Shown here: positions 37,514-56,627 of the stretch, one piece after another
Numbering within the stretch: position 1 is the first letter of the stretch
Layout of the letters: every line of letters begins with the position of its first letter
Assembly: GCA_964538705.1 (NCBI GenBank)
Contig: CAZIEI010000003.1
Location: forward strand, 62-64,061
Source: an uncultured Spirochaetales bacterium
Lineage (GTDB): Bacteria; Spirochaetota; Spirochaetia; Treponematales; JBGSOB01
Length of the DNA: 64,000 nucleotides
Reading direction: 5' to 3'
Program-made: the position numbers and the translations under genes
Notes under the pieces: generated by a model
What the model saw: the letters and a program-made list of their open reading frames with translations, nothing else
The model's database searches: none
What the model was told of the DNA's origin: nothing

Positions 37514-37568
37514 CGGAGAGTGCGGCTTGCCCGGAGTCCGGCCGGCCGCGCCGCCGGCCAAACGGGGC

Positions 37569-40646: not shown

Positions 40647-40687
40647 TTTTTTTTTTGCTTGCGCCCTCGATGGCCCGATGGTAGACT
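40647..40687 (+). promoter_or_regulatory. T10 tract plus candidate sigma70-type promoter upstream of the REC-PAS-GGDEF-EAL gene
   Basis: T10 at 40647-40656. TTGCGC (40659-40664), a 17-nt spacer, then TAGACT (40682-40687). Confidence 0.3.
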
Positions 40688-40824
40688 GGGACGACAATCA
40701 AAGAACAGCCCATGGATTGAATACGTGCCCGACGCAGGCAGGACGCGCGGCCCCAAGTGGCGGTACGCCAGTGGGAAAGCCACGCGCCCGGGATCCCGCG
40801 GGCGGAAGCGGTGGAACGAAGGAG

Positions 40825-43793: not shown

Positions 43794-46436
43794 TTAGCGC
43801 CCGACGACGGCCGGGAGCTTCCAATCCGCGCCGGAGAACTCCGAACGAATGGCGCGGCCGGTGGAATCCATCACGATGAGGTCCGGCAAGACGGGGCCCG
43901 AGGGATCGTCGTCGAAGCCGCCAAAGGCCCGCGCCGCGATGCTCACGCCCTGAAAAAACCGCTTGCGCGCCTCGACCTTGATGGGGAGGTCGATGATCGC
44001 CATGAGGGCGCCTTCCCGTCCCGGATACGGGCGCACCAGGCAGAGGCCGGCCTTGCGGTACCGTTCTCCGCCTACGGAGAATCCGCCCTTCTCCCAGGCC
44101 GCGGGGAAGTCCGGGCCCGCGGCCGCGAGGGTCCGCGCGAGGGCCGCGTTCTGAGCGGGGCTTCCGACGAAGATGGCCGAGGCGGGAATCTTCCCGCCGA
44201 GCGCGAGATACGCCGCGTCGGAGACGACGCGCGGTTTGCCGCTCCGCGCGCCCCCGTTCACGAGTGAATCCGGCTCGAGGCTTCCGAGAAGCTCGGCGCC
44301 CCTCCGGAGCTCGGCGTTGAACCGTCCGCCCTTGGTCCCGTAGACGATGTAGAGGGGCATGAGGTAGAGGTCGAGGAGTCCGCCGCCCTCGTTCACGCGG
44401 GCCGGGGCGCGCGTGGGTGCCTGCGCGGGCGTCTGTAGGGCCGCCCGCGCGAAGCGGCCGCGGGCATCCTTCCTGAAGACGGCCCGCGGAGACCCGGCGT
44501 CTACCGCGAGGGAAGCACCGTCGACCCACACGACGACGCGCCCCGTGGAGGCGAGCGCGGGATGGCGCATATCGAGCGCGAACGCGGCCACTCCCTCAGT
44601 CTCGACGCTCACGTGCCGTTCGTCGTCGATAACGGCGTCCAGCCTTCCCGCCGTCCCCGCCTCGAGCTCCGCGATCTCCGCCCAGTAATGCCGGCGGTAC
44701 CGCAAGTGGGAGGCGGAGAAGCGGAGCCTCCGCGGCTTCGCCTCTCGCTTGAGTGCGCGAACGCGGTCGAGGAGGCGGCCGTCGTCGCCCGAGTTCCAGG
44801 CGGTGAGCGCGGAGTGGCCCGCGCCGGGAAGGACCTCGAGCGTCACGGGACAGCGCGCGGCGCGGAGGATCGAGGCGGCCGTCGTCGAGGCTCCGAGGGG
44901 CACGACGTCGTCCGCGTCGCCGTGGACGAGGAGGAGGGGGAGCGAGTGGAGGTTGTCGAGGAGCTGCGGCCCCGTCCATCCGGCGAAGGCCGAAGCTGAA
45001 GCGAAGCGGTCCGCGTAGAGCTGCGCGAAACGGAGCGTCCCGAAGGCGCCCATCGAGGATCCCGCGATATGAACCCGGTCAGGATCGATCCGGTAGCGCG
45101 ACTCGACCTCGGCAATGGCCTCGAGAACGTCGGCCTCGCCCATACACTGGTAACCGAAATCCCCGCGGCCGAAGGGCGCGAGGACGACGAATTCCGCGTC
45201 AGCCGCGCGCGAGAAGGGTTCGATCCCCTGCCGGTCGTCGCTGCCCTTTCCGTGGAGCATGACGAGGAGGGGCCGCCCCGCGCCTCGCACGGGCCCGGAG
45301 GGCAGGTAGAGCGAGTAAGGCTGGAGCGAGCCGTCGAGCGCCGAACGGAACGCCAGCCTGAGCGTACCGGAGGGAGCAGTCCGGGAGGCTGCGGCGGCCT
45401 TGATCGCGCGCGCCTCCTCGATCGCGTCGATCCGTTGCTCCATCGCGCAGAGCGAGGGATCGGTCCGGCCATCCATGATCAAGGCCGCGAACTCGAGGCT
45501 CGCGGGCGCGTCGAACCAGGGACAACGCGCCGACCGCGCGGCCTCCCGCGCCGCCGCCGCCTCGGCCGCGAGCGCGTCCTCCGCTTTCCCGACGACGATG
45601 ACGCGCGGCTTCGAGACGAGGCCCGCAAGGACGCCCCCTCCCTTCGCCCTCAGGGAGAGGGCTCCCTTCGCCGCGGGCGGGACGCGGATCGCCGCGGGGC
45701 GCGATGCCCTCGTCGATGCCTCGGCGACGACATTTCCCTTCGCATCCAGGAGCTCGACGGTCATCGGCGCGTCGAGGGCGGCCTTGGGAACGGTCATGGG
45801 ATTGCAGAGGAGCTCCATTCCGGCCTCGACCCGCCAGGACGCGGGAGCGATGGAAAGTCCGCGCGCCTTGAACGCGCGCGGCGCGACTGCGGGCCGCGCC
45901 CTCAGGTTGAAGGCCCAGCCGCCGTTGCCTTGGTCCACCTTCGCGAGGATGCGGTTCTTGCCCGTTTCCAGGCGGACGACGACGAGATCGTCGCCCGGCG
46001 CGATCGCCCGGTGGATGTGGTTCGCGTGGACGAGGCGGCCGTTCACCCAGAGCTTGACCCCATCGTCCGAACCGATCGCGAATTCCCATTCGCCCGGAAC
46101 GCGAGCCTCGATCTCGCGGTAGACGTAAGCGAGGCAATCCTCCTCGTAGCCGAAGAGCGCAAGGAGGTCGATCTCCTCGCTTCCGTCGGCTCCCGCGCGC
46201 GCCTCCGCGCGGATCCAGGAGGAACCCGCGGCCGCCGCCCCCTCGCGCGGCCGGACCCCGGCCTCGCCCCCCGCGGCCGCGAGGCAGTCGCGATCGAAAC
46301 CCTGGCAGTCGCCCGCGACCCGGGGATTGGGGAAGGGCCCGAGCGCGAGCCATACGGTTCCGCCGCTTCCCTCGGCCGCGAGAACGGACGTCGCCGCGAG
46401 GGCCAGAGCGAGCGCCGCGCCAATGGTACGCGTCAT
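43794..46436 (-). CDS. Secreted multidomain protein: PA14/lectin-like N-terminal domain + alpha/beta-hydrolase (S9/esterase-like) domain + C-terminal domain
   Basis: Signal peptide MTRTIGAALALALAATSVLAAEG. N-terminal segment EWEFAIGSDDGVKLWVNGRLV...GNGGWAFNLRA. Hydrolase triad candidates are GSSMG (Ser), LLVHGDADDVVP (Asp) and PGAGHSAL (His). The ATG overlaps the upstream stop (ATGA). Confidence 0.7.
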   Translation of the reverse strand: MTRTIGAALALALAATSVLAAEGSGGTVWLALGPFPNPRVAGDCQGFDRDCLAAAGGEAGVRPREGAAAAGSSWIRAEARAGADGSEEIDLLALFGYEEDCLAYVYREIEARVPGEWEFAIGSDDGVKLWVNGRLVHANHIHRAIAPGDDLVVVRLETGKNRILAKVDQGNGGWAFNLRARPAVAPRAFKARGLSIAPASWRVEAGMELLCNPMTVPKAALDAPMTVELLDAKGNVVAEASTRASRPAAIRVPPAAKGALSLRAKGGGVLAGLVSKPRVIVVGKAEDALAAEAAAAREAARSARCPWFDAPASLEFAALIMDGRTDPSLCAMEQRIDAIEEARAIKAAAASRTAPSGTLRLAFRSALDGSLQPYSLYLPSGPVRGAGRPLLVMLHGKGSDDRQGIEPFSRAADAEFVVLAPFGRGDFGYQCMGEADVLEAIAEVESRYRIDPDRVHIAGSSMGAFGTLRFAQLYADRFASASAFAGWTGPQLLDNLHSLPLLLVHGDADDVVPLGASTTAASILRAARCPVTLEVLPGAGHSALTAWNSGDDGRLLDRVRALKREAKPRRLRFSASHLRYRRHYWAEIAELEAGTAGRLDAVIDDERHVSVETEGVAAFALDMRHPALASTGRVVVWVDGASLAVDAGSPRAVFRKDARGRFARAALQTPAQAPTRAPARVNEGGGLLDLYLMPLYIVYGTKGGRFNAELRRGAELLGSLEPDSLVNGGARSGKPRVVSDAAYLALGGKIPASAIFVGSPAQNAALARTLAAAGPDFPAAWEKGGFSVGGERYRKAGLCLVRPYPGREGALMAIIDLPIKVEARKRFFQGVSIAARAFGGFDDDPSGPVLPDLIVMDSTGRAIRSEFSGADWKLPAVVGR

Positions 46437-49138
46437 CGCTTATTCTCCTCCCTGTCCTCGCCCTCCTCCTTGAGGGACCGGGCGAGCGAGCGCTCGGCGA
46501 GCCTGCGGTAGGCGTCCATCACGCGCGCCGAGTCGTCCTTCGTCTCGACCGCCGCGGACGTCCCGCGCCTCAGGCGTTCCACGAGCCGCTCCTGCCTGGA
46601 CCACCAGGCGACCGCGGTGGCCCGGGCCATCTTGAACTGCCCGAAGAGCGTGCTCCTCCCGTAGAGCTCGACGACGAAGAGGACGAGCGAGGCGAGGAGG
46701 GCCCACCAGCGGAGGGGAGCCATCCTCAGCGAGAGCCTCGGCTCCTCGGGAGCCAGGCCGTCGGGCCGGAGGAGCGCGCCGCCCGCCCTTCCCGCGGCCG
46801 CCTGGAGCGCGGCCTCGTCCGGCCCCGTGCGCGCGAGCTCCGCGTCCTTCTGCCGCCAGATCCACGCCTCGGTCCAGGCCCCCGTCCGCGCGTCGCTCAC
46901 GGCGTAGCGCTCGATCCCGGCTCCGGCGCTCCGCGACGCCGAAGGCGCCAGCGCCTCGTAGCGTCCCGGCGCGGTCTCGCGGAGCGCGAAGGGCGCGGCG
47001 AGCGCGTCGACTCCGCGCGCGCGGAGGTCCAGGCCGGTGGCGGCGCGGCCCTCGGCGTCCACGGCCTCGACGAGGACGCGGAGCGCGCCGCCCTCGTCGT
47101 AGGCGCGCGCGAACATGCCCGAGTCGGGATTACCGCGCTCTACGGATCGGGCGACCTGGGCCCAGAGCCGCGCGTACGCGGGCCTGCCCGACCAGGGAGC
47201 GAGCCAGGCGCCGCCCGAGTCCGACGTGAACACCGCGACCTTCCCGGCCCCGTAGCGCCACGACGCGAGGAGCGGATCGAGCTCTTCCCGCGGCGCGCGC
47301 TCGCCGGACTTCCGCTTCCCCTGCTCGGAATCGACGACGAGATGGACGCGAGCGAGTGGCTTTGCCCGTGTGACGAGATAGCCCCTGATGGGCGGGCAGT
47401 TCCCCGCGATGCCCGCGGAGGCGGGCGATGCATCGAGCTCGGCGGGAGCGAAGGAGCCCTCGTTGATAAGGTCGCGCGAGACGCGGGTCGTCTCCTCCGC
47501 GAGGACGCGCGGGATCTGGTCCTGACGAGCGCGGTAGTAGGCGCCGCCGCTCCGCTCCGCGATGCCCCGGAGGAGCTCCTCGTTGACGCTGTCTCCCACG
47601 GCCACCGTGCTCACCGTGGCGCCGACGGCGTTCAGCGAACCGGAGAGCCCCTCGAAGTCCGCGTCCAGAGTGAGGCCGTCCGTGAGGATGACGGCGTGCT
47701 TGCGCGTCGGGCCGATTCCGCCGAAGCTCTTCACGACCTCCTCCATCGCGTCCGCGAGGTCCGTGCCCCCGCCCTCCTTCATTCTGGTCATGGAATCGAG
47801 GATGGCCTCCTTCTCGTCCGCCGGAGTGAAGGGCATGACCCAGGACGGCGAATCATCGAAACCGAGGATGCCGACCTCGTCGCGCGGATCGAGAGCGCTC
47901 ACGGAATCGGCGATGCCGCGCATCGCGGCCGCCTGTTTGGTGACGCCGTTGACGCGCTCGGACATCGAGCCCGAGGTGTCGATGACGAAGAGCACGCGCG
48001 CCCGAGTGAAGAAGAGCCGCCGCCGCGTGTCCGTGGAGACGGGAAGCATGTCCTCGAGCGGGGTCGCGAAGTACTCGCCGCGGCCGAGGGATTGGTCTCC
48101 ACCGACCACGAGAAGGCCGCCGCCGCCGGCCACGTAGGAGAGGAGCCTGTCCTGCTGGAGCTCTGAGACGTAGAGCGCGTTCACGTTGTCGAGCACGACG
48201 GCCTGCACACCCGAGTAGCCCGAGGGATCCTCGGGAATGCCGTCCACGCCGACCGTCACGGCCTCCATGCCCTGAGCGCGGAGGGCGGCGGCGATCGGCG
48301 ATGGGCGGTCCCCGCCGCCCGCGACGAGGACGCGCGCGGGCCCGCTCACCGAGAGGACGCCGCCCGTCCCCGCGGCGGGGAGGAGCGCGCCCTCCTCGTC
48401 TCGCGCCTCGACGCTCACCTCGTGCGCGCCCGTGAACGCGGGGGGAAGCGGAAGGGATATCCTGTTCAATCCCGGGACGAGTTCGGCGGAGCCCGAGGCG
48501 GCGGCCGCGCCGTCGATCGAGAGGGTCCAGGTCACGGAGCGATTCCTGTCCGAGGACAGCGACCATGAGGCTTCGGCGCGCTCGCGGGGACGAAGGACGT
48601 CGGGAAGTTTGAGGCCCTCAGTCCTGACGCCGCCTCGCTCCTCGCCCACGGGATAGGCGTAGAGCCGCGTCCCGGAGGCCGCGAAGCGCTCCGGAAGGAT
48701 CCCATCGCCGCGAGTATCGCGGCCGTCCGAGAACAGGTACACGGCGCGGGCGCCACCCTCCCCGTCGATGAGGGAAGCGGCGGTCGCCACAGCGAGGGCG
48801 ATGTCGGTATCGCCTCCGGGAATCGATCCGAGCTCCGCGGACGTAAGGGCGCGCGACGCCGCTCTCGCGGAGACGAGCCGGGATATGACCTCGGTCCTCC
48901 CCGCGAAGGCCAGGACCGCCGCGCGGTCCCGCTTCGCGAGCCGTGAGAGCAGGGCGATCGCCGCGCGCCGCGCTTCTTCGCGCCCCTCCTCGCCCACGGA
49001 ACCGGAGACGTCGATGACGACGGCGACGGAGCGGGCCCGCGTCGGGAGCGGCGCCTTGAGGCCGATAGCAGCGACGATCGCCGCGGCTATGGCGGCTATT
49101 CTCAGAACCGCGAGCGCGGTCATGACTCGCGACTTCAT
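46433..49138 (-). CDS. Membrane-anchored protein with two VWA domains (Bat-like)
   Basis: N-terminal TM segment. MIDAS motifs: VAVVIDVSGSV and VLFVIDTSGSM...GGTDL...TDG. C-terminal TM: LRWWALLASLVLFVVELY. Confidence 0.75.
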   Translation of the reverse strand: MKSRVMTALAVLRIAAIAAAIVAAIGLKAPLPTRARSVAVVIDVSGSVGEEGREEARRAAIALLSRLAKRDRAAVLAFAGRTEVISRLVSARAASRALTSAELGSIPGGDTDIALAVATAASLIDGEGGARAVYLFSDGRDTRGDGILPERFAASGTRLYAYPVGEERGGVRTEGLKLPDVLRPRERAEASWSLSSDRNRSVTWTLSIDGAAAASGSAELVPGLNRISLPLPPAFTGAHEVSVEARDEEGALLPAAGTGGVLSVSGPARVLVAGGGDRPSPIAAALRAQGMEAVTVGVDGIPEDPSGYSGVQAVVLDNVNALYVSELQQDRLLSYVAGGGGLLVVGGDQSLGRGEYFATPLEDMLPVSTDTRRRLFFTRARVLFVIDTSGSMSERVNGVTKQAAAMRGIADSVSALDPRDEVGILGFDDSPSWVMPFTPADEKEAILDSMTRMKEGGGTDLADAMEEVVKSFGGIGPTRKHAVILTDGLTLDADFEGLSGSLNAVGATVSTVAVGDSVNEELLRGIAERSGGAYYRARQDQIPRVLAEETTRVSRDLINEGSFAPAELDASPASAGIAGNCPPIRGYLVTRAKPLARVHLVVDSEQGKRKSGERAPREELDPLLASWRYGAGKVAVFTSDSGGAWLAPWSGRPAYARLWAQVARSVERGNPDSGMFARAYDEGGALRVLVEAVDAEGRAATGLDLRARGVDALAAPFALRETAPGRYEALAPSASRSAGAGIERYAVSDARTGAWTEAWIWRQKDAELARTGPDEAALQAAAGRAGGALLRPDGLAPEEPRLSLRMAPLRWWALLASLVLFVVELYGRSTLFGQFKMARATAVAWWSRQERLVERLRRGTSAAVETKDDSARVMDAYRRLAERSLARSLKEEGEDREENKR

Positions 49139-50979
49139 TTATTTCCGCCTTCCCGCCGTGCCTTCAGCGCGGGCGCGCCCCTCCAGAGCGTCCACTCGAG
49201 GGCGAGGAGGAGCGCGAGGAGCGCCGCCGCCGCCGCCGCGATCTCGCGCGGTCCGCCTGAAGAGGAAGCGGCGAGGGGAGCCGGCTCCGCTGGCATGAGG
49301 AGGGCCCTCGGGGCGAGATCGAGCTCGGAGAGCGGGAGATTCACGGCGATAGGCGCGGCGCGACCGCCTGTCCCCGGAAGCTCGGCCTTGTAGAGGCCGC
49401 GCTTCAAGGCAAGCGCATAACGGACGCCGCCCTCGGTCCAGGTCTCGAAGGCCGACGAGTCCGCGAACTCGAGCGCGTTCCCGATCGCCCGTGCCTCGCT
49501 CCTCCCCGCGGTGAAGTCGTACGCGCCTGAGCCGCCCGTCCCGGGCGCGCACCACTCGAGGAGGTCGCGGACGAAGAGCGGAAAGGAAGGCGAGAGGCCG
49601 ATCCGCTGGTCGAAGGGATCGAAACCGAAGGCGACGCGCTTGAACCCGCCGCTCTCCCAGGCCGCGATCACGGGGATGTCGCCCGCGCGGGCGAGGACGC
49701 GCGCGCCGCTCGGCGACGGGACGGCGACGGCCGCCTCGGGGGGAGCGCCGTCCCACCGCACGAAGCGCGAGAGGGGATGGCCCGGCTCGGAGCCGCTCAC
49801 TGAGCCGGCCAGGGCTCCGTCGGCTCGAGGGGAGGACGATATGAAGAGAGCGTCGCAGGGAGGATCGATCCGGTAGTCCCCGAGAGGCAGGAGCGCGAGC
49901 TCGCATTCTCCTCGCGCGATCGGGGCCGCCGGGTCTCGGGGCGCGAGGTCCGCGCCGGCTCCCGCGAAGGCGGCCGTGAAGTACGGTCCCGGCCGCGCCA
50001 GGGCGAGGACCCGCGCGCGGGGAGCAGGTCCGATCGCGCAGTAGGCGGCGTCATCCGCGGAGTACCCGTCGGCCGCGTCGATGAGGGTCACCGCGTAGCC
50101 GCCGTCGGCGACGCCGTCCTCGAGCCTCAGGGACACCGCACTCGTCCCCTTCCTCGCGACGCCGGACGCCTCCGCGACGGCCGCGCCGTCGCGCGAGAGC
50201 GAGGCGCGGTACGGCATCTCCTCGTCCCAAGAATTCACGATCGAGAAGAGCGCCTTCGCGCCGCCCGCGTCGGAGTTTTCGACGCGGAGCCCGTGGACTC
50301 CGAGATCGCCCGCCGCGGCGCCTACGGAAACCGATCGGACGGCGTCCTTGAACACGGCGCGCACGCGCTCTCCGCCGAGGGACCAGCCGCCGTCGCCGTA
50401 CACGCGGGCCTCCCAGGGCTCGGACCTCGAGGCGAGCCATGCCGAGAGGTCCGCGACGACGGCCTCCTCCTCGAGGGCGGAATCAGTGGCCTCGAGCGAC
50501 GCGAGCGCGGAGCGGAGCGATCCCCGCCCCTCGCCGGGGCCGGAGACGCGGCGCGCTCCGTGCGAACAGGCGAAGACGGCCACGGGCCGCGACGAACCGA
50601 GGGCCGCAACGTCCTCCATGACGAGCCGCCTCGCCTCGGCGAGGCGGTCCTCGCCGTCAGCGCCGCCCGACCGCGCGCCCATGCTCGCGGAGACGTCTAC
50701 GAGGTAGACGACGCCGGGCTCACTCGGCTTCGAGCGCGCGGGCTCGGGCGAGGCGAGGGCGAAGGCCGCGACGGCCACGGCCGCGAGCTGGAGGATGAGG
50801 AGAAAAATAGACTTGCGCCTTACCTTGCGGCCGCCCTCGTTCTTGCCCGAAAGGAGACGCCACACGTACGCCGAGCCCACGGGCTGGCGGCGGAAGCGCA
50901 TCCTGAGGAAGTAGAGGATCGCCACGAGGGCGAGCAGGGCGAGGAAGGCGAGGGCCCAGGGCCGTCCAAGGCTCAGCAT
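49135..50979 (-). CDS. BatA-like N-terminal membrane domain + VWA domain protein
   Basis: The start was trimmed to MLSLGRPWALAFLALLALVAILYFLRMRFRRQP, an aerotolerance BatA_N-like pattern. A VWA MIDAS motif follows (VVYLVDVSASM). There is a C-terminal TM segment. Confidence 0.7.
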   Translation of the reverse strand: MLSLGRPWALAFLALLALVAILYFLRMRFRRQPVGSAYVWRLLSGKNEGGRKVRRKSIFLLILQLAAVAVAAFALASPEPARSKPSEPGVVYLVDVSASMGARSGGADGEDRLAEARRLVMEDVAALGSSRPVAVFACSHGARRVSGPGEGRGSLRSALASLEATDSALEEEAVVADLSAWLASRSEPWEARVYGDGGWSLGGERVRAVFKDAVRSVSVGAAAGDLGVHGLRVENSDAGGAKALFSIVNSWDEEMPYRASLSRDGAAVAEASGVARKGTSAVSLRLEDGVADGGYAVTLIDAADGYSADDAAYCAIGPAPRARVLALARPGPYFTAAFAGAGADLAPRDPAAPIARGECELALLPLGDYRIDPPCDALFISSSPRADGALAGSVSGSEPGHPLSRFVRWDGAPPEAAVAVPSPSGARVLARAGDIPVIAAWESGGFKRVAFGFDPFDQRIGLSPSFPLFVRDLLEWCAPGTGGSGAYDFTAGRSEARAIGNALEFADSSAFETWTEGGVRYALALKRGLYKAELPGTGGRAAPIAVNLPLSELDLAPRALLMPAEPAPLAASSSGGPREIAAAAAALLALLLALEWTLWRGAPALKARREGGNK

Positions 50980-51851
50980 ACGATCCCGCTCCCCGCGAAC
51001 TCGCGCCGGAAGAGCCGCTCCATGGGCTCGTCGCTCGCCACGGATACCCAACCGACGCCCTGCTTGCGCGCGTGGCGAGCGGCGGCCTTGACGAATTCGG
51101 CGACCTTGCCCCGGTAGGCCGCGGCTGTCCGCGCGTCGATGAGGAGGGGCACCTCCTCGTCGTTCTCGGAATCAACGAGGGTGATCTCGCCCGAGATGCC
51201 GGGGTCGAGCTCCTCACGCGAGAGGACCTGGAGCGCGTAGGCCTCGGACCGGCTCGCGGCGAGCGCCGTGACGGTCTCTTTCCATTCCGGGTAGAGGAAA
51301 TCGGAGATGAGGACGGCCACGCACTTGCCCCCGTAGCGAGAAGCGAAGCGCCTCATCCCAGAGAGCGGCGCGAAGGAGTCCTGCGGCGAGATCCTGAGGA
51401 GGGCGGTCTCCGCCTCTGCGAGGCCGACCCGGCTCCGTTCGGGCTTGAGCGGCTCGAGGAGGTCGGCGCCGAGGGCGCACACGCCCACGCGGTTGCCGTT
51501 CCTGAGCGCGATTCCGGCGAGGACGCCGGCGACGCGCTTAGCGACGTCGAGTTTGGAGGGATCGCCCGAGTCCATGGAACGGCTCGCGTCGATGACGAGT
51601 GCGAGGGTGAGTTCCTTCTCCTCGGCGCAGAGCCGCACGAGTAGCTTGCGGAGACGGAGGTACACGGCCCAGTCGACGAGACGCGCGTCATCGCCGCGCA
51701 TGTACTCGCGGTAATCGGCGAACTCGATGCCGCCGCCCTTCGCAGGACTGCGCTGCTCGCCGGCCGCGAATCCCGAGACGCGGCGCCGCGGATTGAGCGA
51801 CATCGCCTTGACGAGCTCGTAGTCGCTCGCGGCGAGGAGGCGTTCAGGCAC
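50973..51851 (-). CDS. DUF58 family protein
   Basis: GGGIEFADYREYMRGDDARLVDWAVYLR...LALVIDASRSM is typical DUF58. The GTG start overlaps the MoxR stop by 8 nt. Confidence 0.85.
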   Translation of the reverse strand: MPERLLAASDYELVKAMSLNPRRRVSGFAAGEQRSPAKGGGIEFADYREYMRGDDARLVDWAVYLRLRKLLVRLCAEEKELTLALVIDASRSMDSGDPSKLDVAKRVAGVLAGIALRNGNRVGVCALGADLLEPLKPERSRVGLAEAETALLRISPQDSFAPLSGMRRFASRYGGKCVAVLISDFLYPEWKETVTALAASRSEAYALQVLSREELDPGISGEITLVDSENDEEVPLLIDARTAAAYRGKVAEFVKAAARHARKQGVGWVSVASDEPMERLFRREFAGSGIVC

Positions 51852-52842
51852 GCGCCGCTCCCGCGAGGGCGGCCTCGACGGCCTCGCTGAGCACGTCCTC
51901 CGCGCGGATCCCCTCGCTCATGCCGTCGAAGTTGAGGGCGATGCGATGCCGTACGGCGGGCGCGGCGACGGCCGAGAGGTCCTCCATGGCCGCGTTGTAG
52001 CGCCCGGACATGAGGGCGCGCGCCTTGGCGCCGAGGACCATGGCCTGGGCCGCCCGCGGGCCGGCGCCGTAGCGAACGAAGCGCTTCGCCTTCTCGCCCG
52101 CCTCCGGGCGGTCCGGCCGCGTTCGCATCACGATGTCCGCGGCGGCTTTCAGCACGGCCGGCGGGACCACGACGTCCCGCGTCGCGGTCTGGAGGGCCCC
52201 GATCTCTTCCGCGCTGATCGCGGGCGAGGGCACGGCCTCCGTCCTGCCGACGGTGCGCTCCACGATGCGCTCGAGGTCCTCCTTCCCGGGATGATCGATG
52301 ATCACCTTGAAGAGGAACCGGTCGATCTGCGCTTCGGGGAGGGGATAGGTCCCTTCCATCTCGAGGGGGTTCTGCGTCGCGAGCACGAGGAAGGGGCGCG
52401 GCAGCGGATACGCCTTCCCGCGCACCGTAACCGCGCGCTCCTGCATCGCCTCGAGGAGGGCGGATTGCGTCTTGGGCGACGCGCGGTTGATCTCGTCCGC
52501 GAGGACGAGGTTCGCGAAGAGGGGCCCGCGCTCGAAGGCGAGCTCGAGGTCCCCGCGGTCCGACCGCTCTACGATGGTAGCCCCGACGACGTCGGAGGGC
52601 ATGAGGTCGGGCGTGAACTGGATGCGCGCGAAGGAAAGGCCCGTCGAGCCCGCGAGCGCCCGCACGAGGCTGGTCTTCCCGAGCCCGGGGACGCCCTCGT
52701 AGAGGACGTGGCCCTCGCAGAGAAGCGCGAGGAGGGTGAAATCCACCGCCTCCCCCTGCCCGACGATGACTTTCGCGATCTCGGCCCTCGCTCTCCCGAT
52801 ACTCTCTACGCATGCGCTCAACGCGGCTCCCTGCTCATTCAT
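51844..52842 (-). CDS. MoxR-family AAA+ ATPase
   Basis: Walker A: GVPGLGKT. FARIQFTPDLMPSDVVG. Walker B: LLADEINRA. LEAMQERAVTV and FLVLATQNPLE. Confidence 0.9.
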   Translation of the reverse strand: MNEQGAALSACVESIGRARAEIAKVIVGQGEAVDFTLLALLCEGHVLYEGVPGLGKTSLVRALAGSTGLSFARIQFTPDLMPSDVVGATIVERSDRGDLELAFERGPLFANLVLADEINRASPKTQSALLEAMQERAVTVRGKAYPLPRPFLVLATQNPLEMEGTYPLPEAQIDRFLFKVIIDHPGKEDLERIVERTVGRTEAVPSPAISAEEIGALQTATRDVVVPPAVLKAAADIVMRTRPDRPEAGEKAKRFVRYGAGPRAAQAMVLGAKARALMSGRYNAAMEDLSAVAAPAVRHRIALNFDGMSEGIRAEDVLSEAVEAALAGAARA

Positions 52843-54230
52843 TCCTCGGCTCCTTCTTCCTCGCTCGCGATTGATAAGTAATACGTCCTCACGTAATCGC
52901 CATACTCGACGGGCACGCGCTCCCTCGACATGGCGGCCTCCGCGCTCCTCACGGCCTCGGCGGCCGTGACAGGCCCAGCAACCCGCTTCCCTCCGGGCAG
53001 GACGATCTCGAATGGATCCTCGTCGGAGCCGCCGAGCTTGAGCGTCTCCGTGCTCGCGCGCGGCGTTATGCGCTGGAAGTCGCGGAGGCGCCCCTCGCCT
53101 CGCCCGGCCTTGTCGCCGCCTCCGCCGGGGGGCCTCATCCCGGAGGCGTCGTCTTTCTTCTCCTCTCCGTCGCCGTTCCCGCCGTCGCCGGGCTCTTCGA
53201 CCATGCCTACCTCTTCTCCCTGTTCCCCGCCGTCTTCCATGGCCATGCTCCCGGGACCGCCCTGATCCTGCGCTTCATCGCGGCGTTCTCCGCGATCGTT
53301 CCCGCGCTCCTTACCAGGATCGTCGCGCCCCTCGGCGCGATCGCTCCCGTTCTCTTTTCGCGTTCGATCCTTCTTCGGGCCCTTAGCGTCCTTCGCGTCC
53401 TTCTCGTCGCCGAGCGAGGCGGACTGCTTCTCGGCCTCGTCCGCCGCGTCCTTGAGGGCGCGGCGTTGCTTCTCCAGCCTGTCGCGCTCCAGGGCGCTCC
53501 CGCTCTTCGCGATGCGCCGCGCGAGCTCGGCGTCGGCCTTACGCACCAGCTCGCGGAAGTCCTCGATGCGCCCCGACGCAAGCGCGCGCTCGGCGGCCTT
53601 CGCGAGGCGCGAGTCTTCGGGGAAGACGCTCCGCGCGATCTCGCGCGAAGCCCCGGTGGAAACCGCGCGCGCCTGCTCCGCGGAAGCGTTTCCCGGCCCC
53701 CGGTCTCCGCCGCTCAGGGCTCCCGCGACGCGGCCCTCTATGCCGGCGGCCGCAATCACGAGCGCTGCGCCGACGACGAACGATGCAAGGGCTCCGGCGG
53801 TCCTCCTCCTGAGCCGCTTGAATCCATAATCGAATGCGCGTCCGCGCCGCGCTAGCTCGGCGGAGGCGCGCTCTTCCGCGGCTTCCTCGATGAGGCCGTC
53901 GAAGGGCCCGGTCATGCCGCGCTTCTCGCAGTACAGGGCCGCGGACATGAGCTCGCGGTCCCCGAGCGCCCTATCCACGAAGAGGGCGGCCTCCTCCTCG
54001 CCGGGCCGTCTTAAAAAGGCGACACCCGCACCGGCCGCCGCTACGAGGGCCGCGGCCGCGGCGAAGAGCGGCAGGCCCGCGGCATCCGCTCCCAGGCCGC
54101 GCGCGACGGCGATGGCCGCTCCCAGGAGGGCCGCGGACGCGGCGGTCCATCCGAGCGCCGTTCCCGCCATGCGCGCGGCCGCGAGTCCGTTCCGCGCCGC
54201 GCCGACGAGCCGCCTCGTGCGCTCAGGCAT
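52839..54230 (-). CDS. Membrane protein (3 predicted TM) with long charged low-complexity region and conserved-looking C-terminal tail
   Basis: 463 aa. TM-like segments lie near residues 22-45, 52-73 and 145-163. A Lys/Asp/Glu/Arg/Gly-rich stretch spans about residues 250-385. The C-terminal tail reads RVPVEYGDYVRTYYLSI. The stop overlaps the moxR ATG (ATGA). Confidence 0.55.
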   Translation of the reverse strand: MPERTRRLVGAARNGLAAARMAGTALGWTAASAALLGAAIAVARGLGADAAGLPLFAAAAALVAAAGAGVAFLRRPGEEEAALFVDRALGDRELMSAALYCEKRGMTGPFDGLIEEAAEERASAELARRGRAFDYGFKRLRRRTAGALASFVVGAALVIAAAGIEGRVAGALSGGDRGPGNASAEQARAVSTGASREIARSVFPEDSRLAKAAERALASGRIEDFRELVRKADAELARRIAKSGSALERDRLEKQRRALKDAADEAEKQSASLGDEKDAKDAKGPKKDRTRKENGSDRAEGRDDPGKERGNDRGERRDEAQDQGGPGSMAMEDGGEQGEEVGMVEEPGDGGNGDGEEKKDDASGMRPPGGGGDKAGRGEGRLRDFQRITPRASTETLKLGGSDEDPFEIVLPGGKRVAGPVTAAEAVRSAEAAMSRERVPVEYGDYVRTYYLSIASEEEGAEE

Positions 54231-54885
54231 CGCGCCTCCTTCCGCCGATCCGTACGCCGGCGAAGGCGAAGAGGAGGAAGATCGCCGCGAGGGCGATCGT
54301 CGATCCGATGCAGATCAGCGAACCGTGGAGCGGACCGCCCGAGAGGGCGTTCCACGCCTGATAGAAAGGATTGAGCAGGTCCAATCGTGGAACGAGAAGG
54401 GTCGAGAAGAACCAGATGAAGAGGAGGAGAGTGCCGATGAATCCGCCGTCCTCTCCCATCGTAAGAGTCGCCGAGAGCCCGACGCCGAGGCCGAGGAGGA
54501 AGAGTGGTGGCCAAGCGAGGGCCGCGAGGATAGTCGGCCCCGCCTGAGGCGCCCACACGAATGCCATGAGAGCGACCGGCGGCGAGAGGAAGGCAAGGGC
54601 CGCGAAATACCCGAGGCCCGCGGCGAGGGCCTTCCCCGCGAGAATGTGGAAGGCCGACGTTCCGTCGGGGAGGTTCCGTTCCCATTCGCTCGACCTCCCG
54701 CGCGCCTTGGCCCCCTGGTACCAGCCCCATCCGAGAGACCAGGCCCCGAGCGTCCAGACGATGAAGATCGGACGGGCCGCGGAAAAGGCGGTGATGGCGA
54801 AGACGAGCGCGGCGGAGACGGCGAGCGGCCGTCCCATCCTGAGGCGGATCCATTCGCGCCATTCGGCGAGGAAGCAGGTGAACAT
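54223..54885 (-). CDS. Polytopic membrane protein (about 6 TM), ABC-2-permease-like size and topology
   Basis: 220 aa, very hydrophobic and Trp/Gly/Leu-rich. It overlaps both neighbours. No family was recognised with confidence. Confidence 0.6.
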   Translation of the reverse strand: MFTCFLAEWREWIRLRMGRPLAVSAALVFAITAFSAARPIFIVWTLGAWSLGWGWYQGAKARGRSSEWERNLPDGTSAFHILAGKALAAGLGYFAALAFLSPPVALMAFVWAPQAGPTILAALAWPPLFLLGLGVGLSATLTMGEDGGFIGTLLLFIWFFSTLLVPRLDLLNPFYQAWNALSGGPLHGSLICIGSTIALAAIFLLFAFAGVRIGGRRRDA

Positions 54886-56546
54886 TATCGGCCCCCTTCT
54901 GCCGCGCCGAGTCCGGTAACGGCGGGCTCGGCCCAGAACGCGGTCTCAGGCGCCCGGCCTTGGACCGTGAAGCCGACCGAGGGAAGCTCGCGCTTCCCGA
55001 ACGCCACGTCCGCGCCCGGGAAGGCCGCGGCGACCGATCGCATCCAGGGCTCCTCCGCGAGCGCCCAATCCGGAAGGGCTCCCGCGGCCGCAGGCAACAA
55101 CTCTCCGTCTTTACCGATGATCAGCTCGGCGCCGCCTCCGCGGACACCAGCGAGCGCGCCCGCGGGAAGGAGACCCGCGAGCCTGACGCTTCCATCGCCG
55201 ACCGAGAGGACGGAGAGATAAGGAACCTCGAACTCATGGCGCCACGCGAAGAGCGAAGAGGGATCCAAGGTCCCGCGCTCGGCATCCTCGAGGGCGACGC
55301 GGATCAAGCGGGGCTGGCCGAGGCCCGCGGCGCTCGCACCGGCGCCGCGCACCCGGATATCCGCGAGCACGCCCGCTCCGAGAGGAAGGGCGACCATCCT
55401 GATCTCGGCGCTCGCGCCCCGGTTCCACGTACGATCGATCGCCGCGCCCGCGATCGAGAGACCCGCGAACGAGAGGACCGCGCCGGCGAGCGCGACGGCG
55501 AGACGCCGCTTCCGCGCGAGGAGGAGCGCCGAGGCGACGGCGGCCCACGCGCCCGCCGCGATAGCGACGCCCGCGGTCGGCGGCGGGTCCTCGATCGGCG
55601 AGGCTGAGGACGCATCCGCGTCCGATGGCCGGTCCTCGATCGCGAACCGCGATGCGTTCAGCCTCCGCGCCTCGTCGTAGGGCGGCATCGCGAGCGCGTC
55701 CTTCCAAAAATCCGGGTCGCGCGAATCGAGGGCATAGCCGGGGCCGCGCTCGATGAGGACGACGCGTCCCATGCCGAAGGGCACAGCGCTGAATCTCTTC
55801 CCCGCGGCGAGGTCGGCACGATCGAAGTCGATGTAGCGCTCAGGCCGCCCCCCGACGACGGCCACCGCGCCGCCGCCCGAGGCGAAGGCGCTGAGCGCAT
55901 CGCGCTGTGACGGGCTCAACGAGAGGGCTTCCCCGTCGATAATGACGGCGCCCACGGCGTCGTAGTCCAGGGCCGAGGAGGGGAAATCCCGGGATGCGGA
56001 CTGGGGTGCATGGACGGGTTCGATCGGAAAAAGAAATCCCGCTACGGCGTTCCGCGCGGCCGCGCTGAGCCCGTTGCAAAGAATCGCGTGCCCCGGGAAG
56101 GTCGATTGCCAAGGATTAAGGAGCTCACGCGCGATAAGCCGCCGTCCGTCGCGCACCGACACCTCGATCTCGAGGAGTCCTTGGTCCAGGAATATCGGGC
56201 ACTCCGCCCGCCCGGACGCGTCGAGGGGAAAGGACTCGGAAGCGGTCGCCGGACTCGAGGAGCGGCTGCGGACAGAGCTTCCCGTCTCCTTGGTTCCTCG
56301 ATAGACGCGGCGTAATTCGACGCGGCCGCGCTCAGGCGGCGGATCGATGCTGACCCAGAGGGGATTCCAACGCCGTGGTACGCCTCGCCCGCCGATCCCG
56401 AGCCTGACATCGACCCTGGATTGATCAGCTTCCAGGAAACCCGCGGCGGTTATATAGAAAAGAACGGCCACGATCCGGATCCGCCGGGAGATCCGGCGAG
56501 GGGACAGAGTCGAATCGGGTCGTTTTCGTCCTTTCATATAACCCAT
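54885..56546 (-). CDS. Membrane-anchored hypothetical protein (553 aa), first gene of the MoxR/VWA operon
   Basis: N-terminal TM IRIVAVLFYITAAGFL and two further TM segments near residues 325-375. No SD precedes either candidate ATG (56546 or 56537). Tandem TATAAT boxes lie immediately upstream. Confidence 0.55.
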   Translation of the reverse strand: MGYMKGRKRPDSTLSPRRISRRIRIVAVLFYITAAGFLEADQSRVDVRLGIGGRGVPRRWNPLWVSIDPPPERGRVELRRVYRGTKETGSSVRSRSSSPATASESFPLDASGRAECPIFLDQGLLEIEVSVRDGRRLIARELLNPWQSTFPGHAILCNGLSAAARNAVAGFLFPIEPVHAPQSASRDFPSSALDYDAVGAVIIDGEALSLSPSQRDALSAFASGGGAVAVVGGRPERYIDFDRADLAAGKRFSAVPFGMGRVVLIERGPGYALDSRDPDFWKDALAMPPYDEARRLNASRFAIEDRPSDADASSASPIEDPPPTAGVAIAAGAWAAVASALLLARKRRLAVALAGAVLSFAGLSIAGAAIDRTWNRGASAEIRMVALPLGAGVLADIRVRGAGASAAGLGQPRLIRVALEDAERGTLDPSSLFAWRHEFEVPYLSVLSVGDGSVRLAGLLPAGALAGVRGGGAELIIGKDGELLPAAAGALPDWALAEEPWMRSVAAAFPGADVAFGKRELPSVGFTVQGRAPETAFWAEPAVTGLGAAEGGR

Positions 56547-56627
56547 TATAACCTATTATAAGGCATTAGGGGGCTTGAACGCTAGATCCCGTTGACCCTT
56601 CCCTACCCTTTTAGGCAGGATGTGCCT

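What the first reader, a model, noticed from the sequence alone, without database searches (positions are those of the whole stretch)
43794..56546. Eight-gene, 12.7-kb fully overlapping operon centred on MoxR-DUF58-VWA (extended Bat-like system of unknown function)
All seven junctions overlap: 54885 (1 nt), 54223-54230 (8), 52839-52842 (4), 51844-51851 (8), 50973-50979 (7), 49135-49138 (4) and 46433-46436 (4). Gene order is: 553-aa membrane protein, 220-aa polytopic membrane protein, 463-aa 3-TM protein with a charged low-complexity region, MoxR AAA+ ATPase, DUF58, BatA_N+VWA protein, double-VWA membrane protein, and an 880-aa secreted PA14-like/alpha-beta hydrolase. The MoxR-DUF58-BatA/B core is known from Bacteroides and Leptospira aerotolerance (bat) loci, whose mechanism remains unresolved. 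Here it is welded to four additional envelope proteins, which suggests a stoichiometric membrane-spanning machine with an enzymatic, secreted output. This is the best candidate in the window for an undescribed system. I cannot tell from sequence alone how widespread this exact eight-gene form is.
Basis: partly seen in the sequence, partly recalled or inferred. Interest (0 to 1): 0.6.

Follow-up and report, generated by a model that had tools for sequence, protein, structure and literature searches.

The report
Spirochaete MoxR–VWA envelope operon, ATPase-less ABC-2 remnant
This is a real eight-gene operon, conserved in uncultured spirochaetes, that joins the poorly understood MoxR/DUF58/BatA-type "aerotolerance-like" envelope proteins to the remains of a gliding-type ABC transporter and a secreted esterase; it is a new variant of a known but mechanistically unsolved kind of system.

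Summary
Eight minus-strand genes (56546→43794) overlap at all seven junctions, and the stated domains are present, although PA14 is only a weak hint. The source is an uncultured Spirochaetales genome. The gene order g1–g7 is kept in 17 of 17 species-level loci with enough flank, across 41–75 % GC. The esterase g8 is present in 14 of these 17.

The locus is not a classical Bat operon, because BatC, BatD and BatE are absent. Profile searches show that g1, g2 and g3, which have no Pfam or NCBIfam family, have positional homologues in Anaerolineae and Clostridia. There a GldA/DrrA-like ABC ATPase sits between the g1-like and g2-like genes, and the g2-like protein is a GldF-like ABC-2 permease.

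Three forms therefore exist:
- ABC ATPase plus MoxR/DUF58 (Anaerolineae)
- ABC ATPase only (Clostridia, including the cultured Anaerotignum lactatifermentans)
- MoxR/DUF58 only (this spirochaete form)

g1, g6 and g7 share domain modules, and g6 and g7 are fused in some genomes. g8 is an LC-Est1-type serine esterase with an intact catalytic triad. Its family also occurs in hexuronate-utilisation loci, so it is a facultative add-on.

My best reading is an inner-membrane complex facing the periplasm, built from VWA/MIDAS proteins and remodelled from the cytoplasm by MoxR–DUF58. The mechanism is inferred, not shown. I rate this a new variant of a known kind, of moderate interest.

The parts
56547..56627 (.). 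81-nt divergent intergenic region between g1 and metH. It holds TATAAT hexamers at 56560-56555 and 56550-45 (minus strand), 8 nt upstream of and overlapping the g1 ATG. This is the presumed operon promoter, possibly giving a leaderless transcript.
   Evidence: Sequence read. The consensus scan found no full -35/-10 promoter, so this is inference only.
54885..56546 (-). g1, 553 aa. Predicted layout: N-terminal TM helix, periplasmic beta-sandwich (44-143), alpha/beta 'GATase1-like' domain (150-270), TM hairpin (324-373), then a C-terminal beta-rich domain. It is a VWA-less paralogue of the middle of g7 and the positional homologue of the ~790-840-aa protein that precedes the ABC ATPase in Anaerolineae and Clostridia.
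   Evidence: No Pfam or NCBIfam hit. The family is small: 80 clusters among 1.84e9 proteins. AF2 pLDDT 82, pTM 0.82. No whole-chain PDB match, only MG/Ig-like and ThuA-like partial matches. hhalign of g1 175-234 against g7 288-348 gives 94.6 %. g1 against d1 (the Anaerolineae/Clostridia g1-like proteins) gives 98 %, with controls <=0.1 %.
54223..54885 (-). g2, 220 aa, a polytopic protein with 5-6 TM helices. It is a probable divergent GldF-like ABC-2 permease with no cognate ATPase gene in the operon.
   Evidence: Hydropathy. The g2 HMM hits ABC-2 permeases at the same operon position in 9 distant loci, with E down to 1e-7. hhalign gives 94.5 %, against <=1.2 % for reversed and cross controls. 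Those distant proteins match Pfam ABC2_membrane families and TIGR03518 GldF. The L015 orthologue has a weak ABC2_membrane_3 hit, E 0.006.
52839..54230 (-). g3, 463 aa. Predicted layout: TM hairpin, conserved ~70-aa cytoplasmic loop (FVDRALG...SAL), third TM, ~170-aa charged low-complexity linker, and a conserved C-terminal motif (LPGG...VPxEYxxYVRxYY).
   Evidence: No curated family. Positional homologues lie upstream of MoxR or g6 in Chloroflexota and Clostridia: hhalign 98.9 %, controls <=3 %.
51844..52842 (-). g4, a MoxR-type AAA+ ATPase (AAA_3 plus AAA_lid_2). Walker A is GVPGLGKT at residue 50 and Walker B is LVLADE at residue 112. It has no TM helix and is predicted cytoplasmic.
   Evidence: Pfam AAA_3 E 3.7e-60. 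Motifs. Hydropathy.
50973..51851 (-). g5, a DUF58 protein with a VWA-like fold and an intact DxSxS motif at residue 88. It is predicted cytoplasmic and is the presumed adaptor of MoxR.
   Evidence: Pfam DUF58 E 5e-29 and VWA_2 E 2e-5. Motif.
49135..50979 (-). g6, 614 aa. Predicted layout: BatA-type double-TM N-terminal anchor, periplasmic VWA (MIDAS DxSxS at residue 95), an extra ~300-aa domain, and a C-terminal TM. It is a paralogue of the N-terminal third of g7.
   Evidence: Pfam BatA at residues 1-78 and VWA_2. TM helices. hhalign of g6 56-366 against g7 5-318 gives 99 %. g6 is fused to g7 in L017, L020 and L024 and in ~1460-aa database proteins.
46433..49138 (-). g7, 901 aa. Predicted layout: N-terminal TM, VWA1 (MIDAS at residue 43), beta-sandwich, GATase1-like domain (~288-348), VWA2 (MIDAS at residue 387), GATase1_like (560-663), C-terminal TM (~807-832), and a ~70-aa basic cytoplasmic tail.
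   Evidence: Pfam. Invariant residues D43/S45/S47 and D387/S389/S391/T459/D487. PDB sequence matches to BatB 3ibs and 4jdu, and to the GATase1-like proteins 2gk3, 3soz and 3rht. Tail motif.
43794..46436 (-). g8, 880 aa. It has a signal-peptide-like N-terminus, two N-terminal beta-sandwich domains (PA14 is only a weak hint), a helical linker, an LC-Est1C-type alpha/beta serine esterase domain (357-560; GSSMG with S461, D509, H541), a beta-sandwich and a C-terminal alpha/beta domain. It is a facultative member of the operon.
   Evidence: Pfam and NCBIfam. AF2 pLDDT 84. Foldseek hit to 3wyd, E 2.9e-12, TM 0.89. Profile against 3wyd, E 1.4e-59. Catalytic triad invariant in 15 homologues. Absent in L012, L019 and L022. 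Homologue P0216 lies in a hexuronate locus.

Best explanation
The eight genes are one translationally coupled operon of an uncultured Spirochaetales bacterium. It encodes an inner-membrane complex that faces the periplasm.

Five proteins are membrane-anchored, and four of them (g1, g3, g6, g7) carry large periplasmic parts:
- g1: GldG-like beta-sandwich plus GATase1-like domain
- g2: GldF-like ABC-2 permease relative (polytopic, without a large periplasmic part)
- g3: a long charged linker
- g6 and g7: three intact VWA/MIDAS metal-dependent binding domains between them

Two proteins are cytoplasmic: the MoxR AAA+ ATPase g4 and its VWA-like DUF58 adaptor g5.

The cluster derives from a wider, uncharacterised cluster that contains a GldAFG-like ABC-2 transporter. 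The spirochaete lineage lost the ABC ATPase, which leaves MoxR as the only NTPase in the operon, and in most members gained a periplasmic serine esterase (g8).

Proposed mechanism (inferred). MoxR-DUF58 uses ATP to assemble or remodel the membrane complex from the cytoplasmic side. This sets the state of the periplasmic MIDAS domains, which hold an anionic envelope or glycan ligand. Where g8 is present, it de-esterifies that ligand.

Shown: gene structure, domain content, intact motifs, co-conservation, and homology to the ABC-2-containing clusters. Inferred: physical complex, topology, ligand, and direction of energy coupling.
For: Operon.
- All seven junctions overlap.
- The overlaps persist in relatives: L002, and L011, L015 and L020.
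- No internal signals exceed chance.

Conservation.
- g1-g7 are present in 17/17 loci and g8 in 14/17, at 41-75 % GC.

Domains and motifs.
- Domain content.
- Walker A/B, four DxSxS MIDAS motifs and the Ser-Asp-His triad are intact.

ABC-2 ancestry.
- HMM and hhalign matches of g1, g2 and g3 to genes at the same positions in Anaerolineae and Clostridia, with clean reversed and cross controls.
- In those loci an ABC ATPase (GldA/DrrA-like) and an ABC2_membrane/GldF-like permease are present.
- No ABC ATPase lies in the spirochaete operons or anywhere in the 64-kb window.

Physical association.
- g6-g7 gene fusions.
- g1, g6 and g7 share modules.

Topology precedent.
- Borrelia BB0173, a BatA-like protein, is an inner-membrane protein with a periplasmic VWA domain (PMC5700661).

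MoxR-vWA precedent.
- vWA proteins have been proposed as metal-dependent substrate adaptors of MoxR at the membrane (PMC3495828).

Regulation hint.
- A HisKA_3 kinase and a NarL-type regulator lie directly upstream in 12/17 relatives.
Against: - No experiment exists for any member of this cluster.
- Complex formation and topology are predictions only.
- MoxR and DUF58 are cytoplasmic while all MIDAS domains of g6 and g7 are predicted periplasmic, so coupling must pass through short loops and tails. The conserved g7 tail motif is also present in clostridial clusters that lack MoxR, so it is not a MoxR-specific docking site.
- An ABC ATPase could be encoded elsewhere in the genome. Only 64 kb was available.
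- The g2-permease homology rests on 92 aligned columns of a membrane protein (94.5 %).
- g8 is dispensable in three relatives, and its family occurs in sugar-acid catabolic loci. It may therefore serve catabolism rather than the complex.
- Deletion of the classical bat genes in Leptospira gave no phenotype (PMC3557215), so the 'envelope stress' assignment is weak.
Confidence: 0.45

Rival explanations
1. It is still an ABC-2 exporter. g2 (permease), g1 (GldG-like auxiliary) and g3 would work with a GldA-like ATPase encoded elsewhere in the genome to export a lipid, glycan or peptide. MoxR-DUF58 and the VWA proteins would only assemble or gate it.
For: In Anaerolineae and Clostridia the homologous genes flank a bona fide ABC ATPase. 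Clostridial clusters need no MoxR. HisKA_3/NarL two-component systems upstream are, from general knowledge, common regulators of ABC-2 transporters.
Against: No ABC ATPase lies in any of the 17 spirochaete-type operons or in the 64-kb window. ABC hits in three loci are 4-9 kb away on the opposite strand and are not conserved. g2 matches no ABC-2 Pfam model itself.
Confidence: 0.25
2. It is an ordinary Bacteroides/spirochaete-type aerotolerance (Bat) operon that protects against oxidative stress.
For: MoxR, DUF58, the BatA N-terminal domain and BatB-like VWA domains are present. Bat loci occur throughout the Spirochaetes (PMC3557215).
Against: No BatC (TPR), BatD or BatE (SH3/TPR) protein is present. 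g6 and g7 are two to three times longer than BatA and BatB and carry GATase1-like domains. Three extra membrane proteins precede MoxR. The aerotolerance role is itself unsupported in Leptospira (PMC3557215).
Confidence: 0.07
3. g8, and perhaps the whole locus, serves uptake or processing of acidic plant polysaccharide (pectin, polyuronate). The MIDAS/metal sites and the N-terminal beta-sandwich domains of g8 would capture uronate chains, and g8 would remove acetyl or methyl esters in the periplasm.
For: A full-length g8 homologue (34 % identity) sits beside a TRAP transporter and KduI, KduD, UxaC, KDG kinase and KDPG aldolase. In L019, GH88 and GH28 genes follow g7 where g8 is missing. The g8 esterase domain resembles carbohydrate, feruloyl and PHB esterases.
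Against: The core cluster exists without g8 in Chloroflexota, Clostridia and three spirochaete-type loci. No glycoside hydrolase, lyase or sugar transporter lies within the operon. The link to pectin rests on two neighbourhoods.
Confidence: 0.13
4. It is an NTPase-vWA conflict or anti-phage system of the MoxR-vWA ternary type.
For: The bpMoxR Pfam model matches g4 at E 1.5e-13. MoxR-vWA pairs are used in conflict systems (PMC7159879).
Against: AAA_3 scores far higher (E 4e-60). There is no beta-propeller or effector domain. No PADLOC family matches apart from a marginal TRIP13 AAA+ hit. The locus has a stable chromosomal context with housekeeping neighbours (metH, dapB) and vertical-looking conservation.
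Confidence: 0.03

Closest known systems
Bat (Bacteroides aerotolerance) operon and its spirochaetal versions (Borrelia BB0170-BB0176, Leptospira batABD)
   Same: MoxR AAA_3 ATPase followed by DUF58. Inner-membrane proteins with the BatA double-TM N-terminal anchor and periplasmic VWA/MIDAS domains. The VWA1 domain of g7 matches the solved BatB and 'aerotolerance-related' domains 3ibs and 4jdu. The mechanism is unknown in all cases (PMC3557215, PMC5700661, PMC11834572).
   Different: No BatC (TPR), BatD or BatE. g6 (614 aa) and g7 (901 aa, two VWA domains plus GATase1-like domains and a C-terminal TM with a tail) are much larger than BatA and BatB (~330 aa). Three membrane proteins (g1-g3) precede MoxR. 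An esterase follows g7.
GldA/GldF/GldG gliding-associated ABC-2 transporter of Flavobacterium (and generic DrrA/ABC-2 exporters)
   Same: In the Anaerolineae and Clostridia relatives, the ATPase is closest to the DrrA and GldA models and the permease's only NCBIfam hit is GldF. A large extracytoplasmic auxiliary protein with TM anchors accompanies them, as GldG does. g2 and g1 are their positional homologues.
   Different: Scores are far below the GldA and GldF equivalog cut-offs. g1 does not match the GldG Pfam model (ABC_transp_aux). The window's form has no ATPase at all. The association with MoxR, DUF58 and VWA proteins is not a feature of gldAFG.
MoxR-vWA(DUF58)-YebA transglutaminase-like membrane system (Zhang & Aravind 2012, PMC3495828)
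   Same: MoxR plus a DUF58-type vWA protein, encoded with polytopic membrane partners. It is proposed to act on substrates at the membrane, with vWA as the substrate adaptor.
   Different: No transglutaminase-like protein is present here. The partners here are periplasmic VWA proteins and an ABC-2 remnant.
Characterised MoxR-VWA chaperone pairs (RavA-ViaA, CbbQ-CbbO, NorQ-NorD; from general knowledge and PMC11834572)
   Same: An AAA+ MoxR hexamer works with a MIDAS-containing partner to remodel or mature a target protein complex.
   Different: Those pairs are cytoplasmic with defined enzyme targets. Here the MIDAS-rich partners are predicted periplasmic, and no target enzyme is encoded nearby.
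LC-Est1 (metagenomic esterase, PDB 3wyd) and Thermotoga EstA (3doh)
   Same: The g8 catalytic domain aligns with TM 0.89 and 31 % identity, profile E 1.4e-59. It has a GxSxG nucleophile and a complete triad.
   Different: g8 carries about 350 N-terminal and 320 C-terminal residues of additional beta-sandwich and alpha/beta domains, and its gene is translationally coupled to a VWA membrane protein gene.

Membership tests
Classical Bat operon | MoxR (AAA_3) ATPase gene followed by a DUF58 gene | tested here: met
   Pfam AAA_3 E 3.7e-60 and DUF58 E 5.4e-29. The genes are adjacent with an 8-nt overlap.
Classical Bat operon | BatA: BatA_N double-TM anchor plus a single VWA domain, ~330 aa | tested here: inconclusive
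   g6 has BatA_N (E 1.4e-9) and VWA_2, but it is 614 aa with an extra domain and a C-terminal TM.
Classical Bat operon | BatC (TPR), BatD (oxygen-tolerance domain) and BatE (SH3/TPR) proteins | tested here: not met
   No TPR, BatD or SH3 Pfam hit in any of the eight proteins or in the flanking genes.
Classical Bat operon | Aerotolerance or oxidative-stress phenotype | not testable with these tools
   Needs genetics. Even for true Bat loci the phenotype is inconsistent (PMC3557215 versus PMC11834572).
MoxR AAA+ (MRP-type) with VWA partner | Intact Walker A and B, an AAA lid, and an adjacent VWA/MIDAS protein | tested here: met
   GVPGLGKT at residue 50, LVLADE at residue 112, AAA_lid_2 E 8e-13. 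DxSxS motifs in g5, g6 and g7.
GldAFG-like ABC-2 transporter | ABC ATPase subunit encoded with the permease | tested here: not met
   No ABC_tran homologue (E<1e-5) in the operon, in the 64-kb window, or in the 16 related spirochaete-type operons. One is present in 11 Anaerolineae, Clostridia or other loci.
GldAFG-like ABC-2 transporter | ABC-2 type permease | tested here: inconclusive
   g2 has no Pfam or NCBIfam hit. Its family profile matches ABC2_membrane/GldF-like permeases at the same operon position: hmmsearch 1e-7, hhalign 94.5 %, controls <=1.2 %. The L015 orthologue hits ABC2_membrane_3 at E 0.006.
GldAFG-like ABC-2 transporter | GldG-type auxiliary protein (ABC_transp_aux) | tested here: not met
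   No ABC_transp_aux hit for g1. The distant homologue L045 d1 shows only weak DUF4350 and DUF7408 hits. g1 has a GATase1-like alpha/beta domain shared with g7.
MoxR-vWA-YebA transglutaminase system | Polytopic membrane protein with a transglutaminase-like domain | tested here: not met
   No Transglut_core or TGL hit in any protein.
bpMoxR-vWA-beta-propeller conflict systems / known defence systems | bpMoxR-type ATPase with a vWA protein, a beta-propeller and an effector | tested here: not met
   bpMoxR E 1.5e-13 is much weaker than AAA_3. No propeller or effector. PADLOC gives only a marginal TRIP13 hit, E 4e-4.
Alpha/beta serine carboxylesterase (LC-Est1C-like) | GxSxG nucleophile elbow and a Ser-Asp-His triad on an alpha/beta hydrolase fold | tested here: met
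   GSSMG with S461, D509 and H541, invariant in 15 homologues. Foldseek hit to 3wyd, TM 0.89. Profile E 1.4e-59.
PA14 domain (in g8) | Match to the PA14 model over the whole domain | tested here: inconclusive
   Pfam PA14 E 0.0059, 16.9 bits against a cut-off of 24, with only residues 113-140 aligned. The model shows a beta-sandwich at 29-182, but no domain-level fold search was possible.

The most novel reading that the evidence does not exclude
g1, g2, g3, g6 and g7 form one conserved extracytoplasmic-facing membrane machine in which the 'Bat-type' VWA proteins are integral subunits of a GldAFG-like ABC-2 apparatus. This machine can be driven by an ABC ATPase (Clostridia), by a MoxR AAA+ ATPase with DUF58 (spirochaetes), or by both (Anaerolineae). 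That would be an evolutionary swap of motors on the same membrane chassis. It would recast the enigmatic Bat/BatA-like proteins as parts of a transport or surface-assembly machine rather than oxidative-stress factors.
Probability: 0.25. Interest if true: 0.75.

Novelty: new variant of a known kind. Interest (0 to 1): 0.5.

Why it matters
MoxR-DUF58-BatA/VWA loci are among the most widespread bacterial gene clusters that still lack a mechanism. They were named in 1999 for an aerotolerance phenotype that has not held up in spirochaetes.

This locus, and the relatives found from it, give a new handle on the problem. The large BatA_N/VWA/GATase1-like proteins are repeatedly encoded with a GldAFG-like ABC-2 transporter module. 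The two kinds of ATPase (ABC and MoxR) occur together or alone in different lineages.

That pattern points to an envelope transport or assembly role. It defines three protein families with no curated model (g1, g2, g3). It also identifies a cultured organism, Anaerotignum lactatifermentans DSM 14214, in which the related cluster could be studied genetically. It does not by itself reveal the substrate or the phenotype.

Tried and rejected
- Curated families for g1-g3. Pfam at E<=10 and NCBIfam at E<=0.01 found nothing.
- Word-indexed homology search for g1. It found only the self-match and one close relative. The exhaustive search was needed to find 80 clusters.
- Locus search with a 19-sequence g7 alignment. 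A 10-sequence alignment worked.
- Relation of g8 to the other proteins. hhalign of g8 against g1, g6 and g7 showed no relation.
- Defence system. PADLOC gave nothing meaningful.
- Regulatory RNAs and signals. Rfam found only a distant tRNA. The promoter and terminator scan found nothing above chance.
- MoxR docking site on the g7 tail. I tested whether the cytoplasmic tail motif of g7 is specific to clusters that have MoxR. It is not, so I rejected it as a docking-site argument.
- The upstream two-component system seen in relatives. I looked for it in the window and it is absent.
- Literature. Searches for DUF1355, GATase1_like, DUF4159, TIGR02226 and 'BatA domain', and for MoxR together with ABC-2, found no description of this arrangement.
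- dapB as a ninth gene. I rejected this: there is a 137-nt gap and dapB is not conserved next to g8 in the relatives.

Full report
OBSERVATION

The window is about 65-74 % G+C. Between 56546 and 43794 the minus strand carries eight uninterrupted ORFs of 553, 220, 463, 332, 292, 614, 901 and 880 aa.

The start of g6 at the ATG at 50979, rather than the upstream TTG, has two supports. The BatA model aligns from residue 1. Independent gene calls on a close relative give eight genes of almost the same lengths with overlaps of 4, 8, 4, 8, 7, 4 and 4 nt.

No promoter-like or terminator-like site above the shuffled expectation lies inside the block. No Rfam family lies in it.

Upstream, 81 nt away and divergent, is metH. 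Downstream, after 137 nt, is dapB, followed by a convergent REC-PAS-GGDEF-EAL gene.

DOMAIN CONTENT

Pfam and NCBIfam confirm the following.
- g4 is a MoxR AAA_3 ATPase (E 4e-60) with Walker A GVPGLGKT and Walker B LVLADE.
- g5 is DUF58 with a DxSxS motif.
- g6 has the BatA double-TM N-terminal domain plus a VWA domain.
- g7 has two VWA domains plus GATase1_like.
- g8 is an alpha/beta hydrolase.

PA14 in g8 is only a 28-residue sub-threshold match (E 0.006). g1, g2 and g3 match nothing in Pfam even at E<=10, and nothing in NCBIfam at E<=0.01.

Hydropathy and the AlphaFold model give these layouts.
- g1: an N-terminal helix and a central TM hairpin.
- g2: five or six TM helices.
- g3: three TM helices and a 170-residue charged linker (43 D/E, 37 K/R).
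- g6: two N-terminal TM helices and one C-terminal TM helix.
- g7: one TM helix at each end, then a ~70-residue basic tail.
- g8: a signal-peptide-like N-terminus.

By the positive-inside rule the large parts of g1, g3, g6 and g7 are predicted periplasmic. The Borrelia BatA-like protein BB0173 provides a precedent, because its VWA domain was shown to face the periplasm (PMC5700661). g4 and g5 are predicted cytoplasmic.

SOURCE AND CO-CONSERVATION

The exact g1 protein occurs on one NCBI contig. An 87 % identical relative lies in an 'uncultured Spirochaetales' MAG with the same operon and the same metH neighbour.

A scan of one genome per GTDB species with a g7 alignment returned 80 loci with 10-kb flanks. 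I translated all six frames and searched them with the eight window proteins, then with family HMMs.

Results for the spirochaete-type ('S-type') loci:
- The order g1-g2-g3-g4-g5-g6-g7 is present in every one of the 16 loci (17 with the window) that have enough upstream sequence.
- These are MAGs labelled Spirochaetales, Treponemataceae, Spirochaetaceae or Spirochaetota, plus five labelled Bacillota.
- g7 identity is 40-94 % and locus G+C runs from 41 to 75 %.
- g8 follows g7 in 14 of the 17. It is missing in L012, L019 and L022.
- The short overlaps at g1/g2, g2/g3, g3/g4 and g7/g8 recur in distant members, for example L011 and L020.
- g6 and g7 form one ORF in L017, L020 and L024, and in many ~1460-aa database proteins. 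This is classical evidence that the two proteins act together.
- Twelve of the 17 loci also carry a HisKA_3 histidine kinase and a NarL/LuxR response regulator directly upstream on the same strand. The window does not.

An exhaustive search gives only 80 clusters of g1 relatives among 1.84 billion representatives, so g1 defines a small family.

WHERE g1-g3 COME FROM

Family HMMs of g1, g2 and g3 hit ORFs at the same relative positions in other lineages. The hits lie upstream of MoxR-DUF58-g6-g7 in Anaerolineae/Chloroflexota (L035, L040, L045, L072) and in a Clostridiales MAG (L062). They lie upstream of g6-g7 in five Clostridia loci (L066, L073, L075, L077, L081). L077 is Anaerotignum lactatifermentans DSM 14214.

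Profile-profile comparison gives 98.0 % (g1), 94.5 % (g2) and 98.9 % (g3). Reversed-sequence and cross-family controls are all <=3 %.

In all of these distant clusters an extra gene lies between the g1-like and g2-like genes.
- The extra gene is an ABC ATPase (ABC_tran plus the DrrA C-terminal domain). Its best NCBIfam models are DrrA and GldA.
- The g2-like protein is an ABC-2 permease (ABC2_membrane_2 and _3). Its only NCBIfam hit is GldF.

No ABC ATPase lies in any S-type operon or anywhere in the 64-kb window.

Three architectures therefore share the chassis g1/g2/g3/g6/g7:
- ABC ATPase plus MoxR-DUF58
- ABC ATPase only, with no MoxR or DUF58 within 10 kb
- MoxR-DUF58 only, which is the form in the window

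Many Chloroflexia loci have a g7-like gene alone. Planctomycetia and Verrucomicrobia loci have 4-5-6-7 or 6…7.

MODULE SHARING AND STRUCTURES

g6 residues 56-366 align with g7 residues 5-318 (99 %). The alpha/beta domain of g1 (175-234) aligns with g7 288-348 (94.6 %, motif LP..Y.G..AVVLD…Q…L..yv.GGGGL). The distant g1-like proteins align with g7 218-370. g1 is thus a VWA-less paralogue of the middle of g7.

The g1 model is confident (pLDDT 82, pTM 0.82). It has no whole-chain PDB match. Only macroglobulin/Ig-like beta-sandwich and weak ThuA-like or receiver-like partial matches appear.

The g7 profile matches the solved BatB and 'aerotolerance-related' VWA domains (3ibs, 4jdu) and the GATase1-like proteins 2gk3, 3soz and 3rht. 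MIDAS residues of both g7 VWA domains are invariant in the homologue alignments.

The g8 model has pLDDT 84. Its catalytic domain superposes on LC-Est1C (3wyd; TM 0.89, 31 % identity; profile E 1.4e-59). S461, D509 and H541 are invariant. g8 shows no relation to g1, g6 or g7.

IS g8 PART OF THE SYSTEM?

It is tightly coupled in 14 loci, but the association is not exclusive. A full-length homologue (P0216, 34 % identity) lies between a TRAP transporter and KduI, KduD, UxaC, KDG kinase and KDPG aldolase, with no Bat-type genes. A shorter relative lies in yet another context.

In the three S-type loci without g8, the downstream genes are GH88 plus GH28 (after 330 nt), an RHS protein, or RecQ. g8 is best seen as a glycan-type esterase recruited to the operon in one clade.

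HOW IT MOST LIKELY WORKS

What is shown:
- a single, translationally coupled operon
- intact ATPase, MIDAS and esterase motifs
- strong co-inheritance of seven genes
- fusion of g6 and g7
- descent of g1-g3 from an ABC-2 transporter module

What is inferred. The five membrane proteins form one inner-membrane complex whose periplasmic face is rich in metal-dependent binding sites. Cytoplasmic MoxR, with DUF58 as its VWA adaptor, supplies ATP-driven assembly or remodelling. This matches the general proposal for MoxR-vWA pairs at membranes (PMC3495828). In this lineage MoxR would replace the lost ABC ATPase as the only energy source. A bound anionic envelope or glycan ligand would be de-esterified by g8 where g8 is present. 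The two-component system in relatives suggests regulation by an envelope signal.

Weak points:
- The coupling path across the membrane is unknown.
- The conserved g7 tail motif is not MoxR-specific.
- An ATPase could be encoded elsewhere in the genome.
- No phenotype is known. Deletion of the classical bat genes in Leptospira had none (PMC3557215). Riemerella moxR and batA mutants are stress-sensitive (PMC11834572).

COMPARISON AND NOVELTY

The locus shares MoxR, DUF58, the BatA anchor and VWA domains with Bat operons. It fails the BatC, BatD and BatE test, so I do not file it as a Bat operon.

It works most like a MoxR-VWA membrane system grafted onto a GldAFG-like ABC-2 chassis. It fails the ATPase test for ABC transporters and the transglutaminase test for the YebA system. 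It has no defence-system signature.

I found no paper describing the ABC-2 link, the g1-g3 families or this eight-gene form.

VERDICT

This is a real, conserved new variant of a known but unsolved kind. Interest is moderate (0.5). It gives a concrete, testable clue about Bat-like proteins rather than a new principle.

Noticed in passing
window 56545-56560 (minus strand): Two TATAAT hexamers lie 8 nt upstream of, and overlapping, the g1 ATG. No Shine-Dalgarno sequence and no -35 element are present. The operon mRNA may be leaderless, or g1 may start at the second ATG (codon 4).
   Followed up: partly
L008 539-2472, and the equivalent positions in L009, L010, L011, L013, L014, L015, L017, L019, L020, L023 and L026: A HisKA_3 histidine kinase and a NarL/LuxR response regulator sit directly upstream of g1 on the same strand in 12 of 17 related loci. 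They are absent from the window and from its closest relative, where metH is the neighbour.
   Followed up: yes
L017 7904-12364, L020 7271-12643, L024 3417-7940; proteins P0055, P0064, P0068, P0073-P0075: g6 (BatA_N/VWA) and g7 (double VWA) are fused into single proteins of about 1460-1490 aa in several genomes.
   Followed up: partly
C-termini of g7 homologues in all architecture classes (e.g. window 46433-46640; L045, L077, L027): The cytoplasmic tail after the last TM ends in a conserved basic motif. It reads AYRxLAERxxRR in spirochaete forms and S/TxxxLLxAKKRxR elsewhere. It is present whether or not MoxR/DUF58 is encoded nearby. Its function is unknown.
   Followed up: partly
L086 1-22712; L019 12958-15576: A full-length g8 homologue lies in a TRAP-transporter and hexuronate (KduI/KduD/UxaC/KDG) locus. 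In L019, which lacks g8, GH88 and GH28 pectin-degradation genes follow g7.
   Followed up: partly
L066, L073, L075, L077 (Anaerotignum lactatifermentans DSM 14214), L081: Clostridial clusters have the order g1-like, ABC ATPase, ABC-2 permease, g3-like, g6, g7 with no MoxR or DUF58 within 10 kb. L077 and L081 have an extra 202-aa ORF with no Pfam hit between the g3-like gene and g6.
   Followed up: partly
window 10788-14000: tRNA-Ala(GGC) at 10788-10862 is followed by a drop in G+C to 0.55 (12-14 kb) and a 565-aa ORF (11013-12710) with no Pfam hit. This may be an insertion next to the tRNA.
   Followed up: no
window 33935-40625 (+): Four consecutive plus-strand ORFs have no Pfam hit at E<=1e-4: 1192 aa at 33935-37513, 436 aa at 37527-38837, 242 aa at 38938-39666 and 339 aa at 39606-40625. 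They are either uncharacterised genes or spurious ORFs of a high-GC sequence.
   Followed up: no
window 40678-42891 (+): A REC-PAS-GGDEF-EAL (cyclic-di-GMP turnover) response-regulator protein is convergent with dapB, just downstream of the operon. It is also present in the close relative L006.
   Followed up: no
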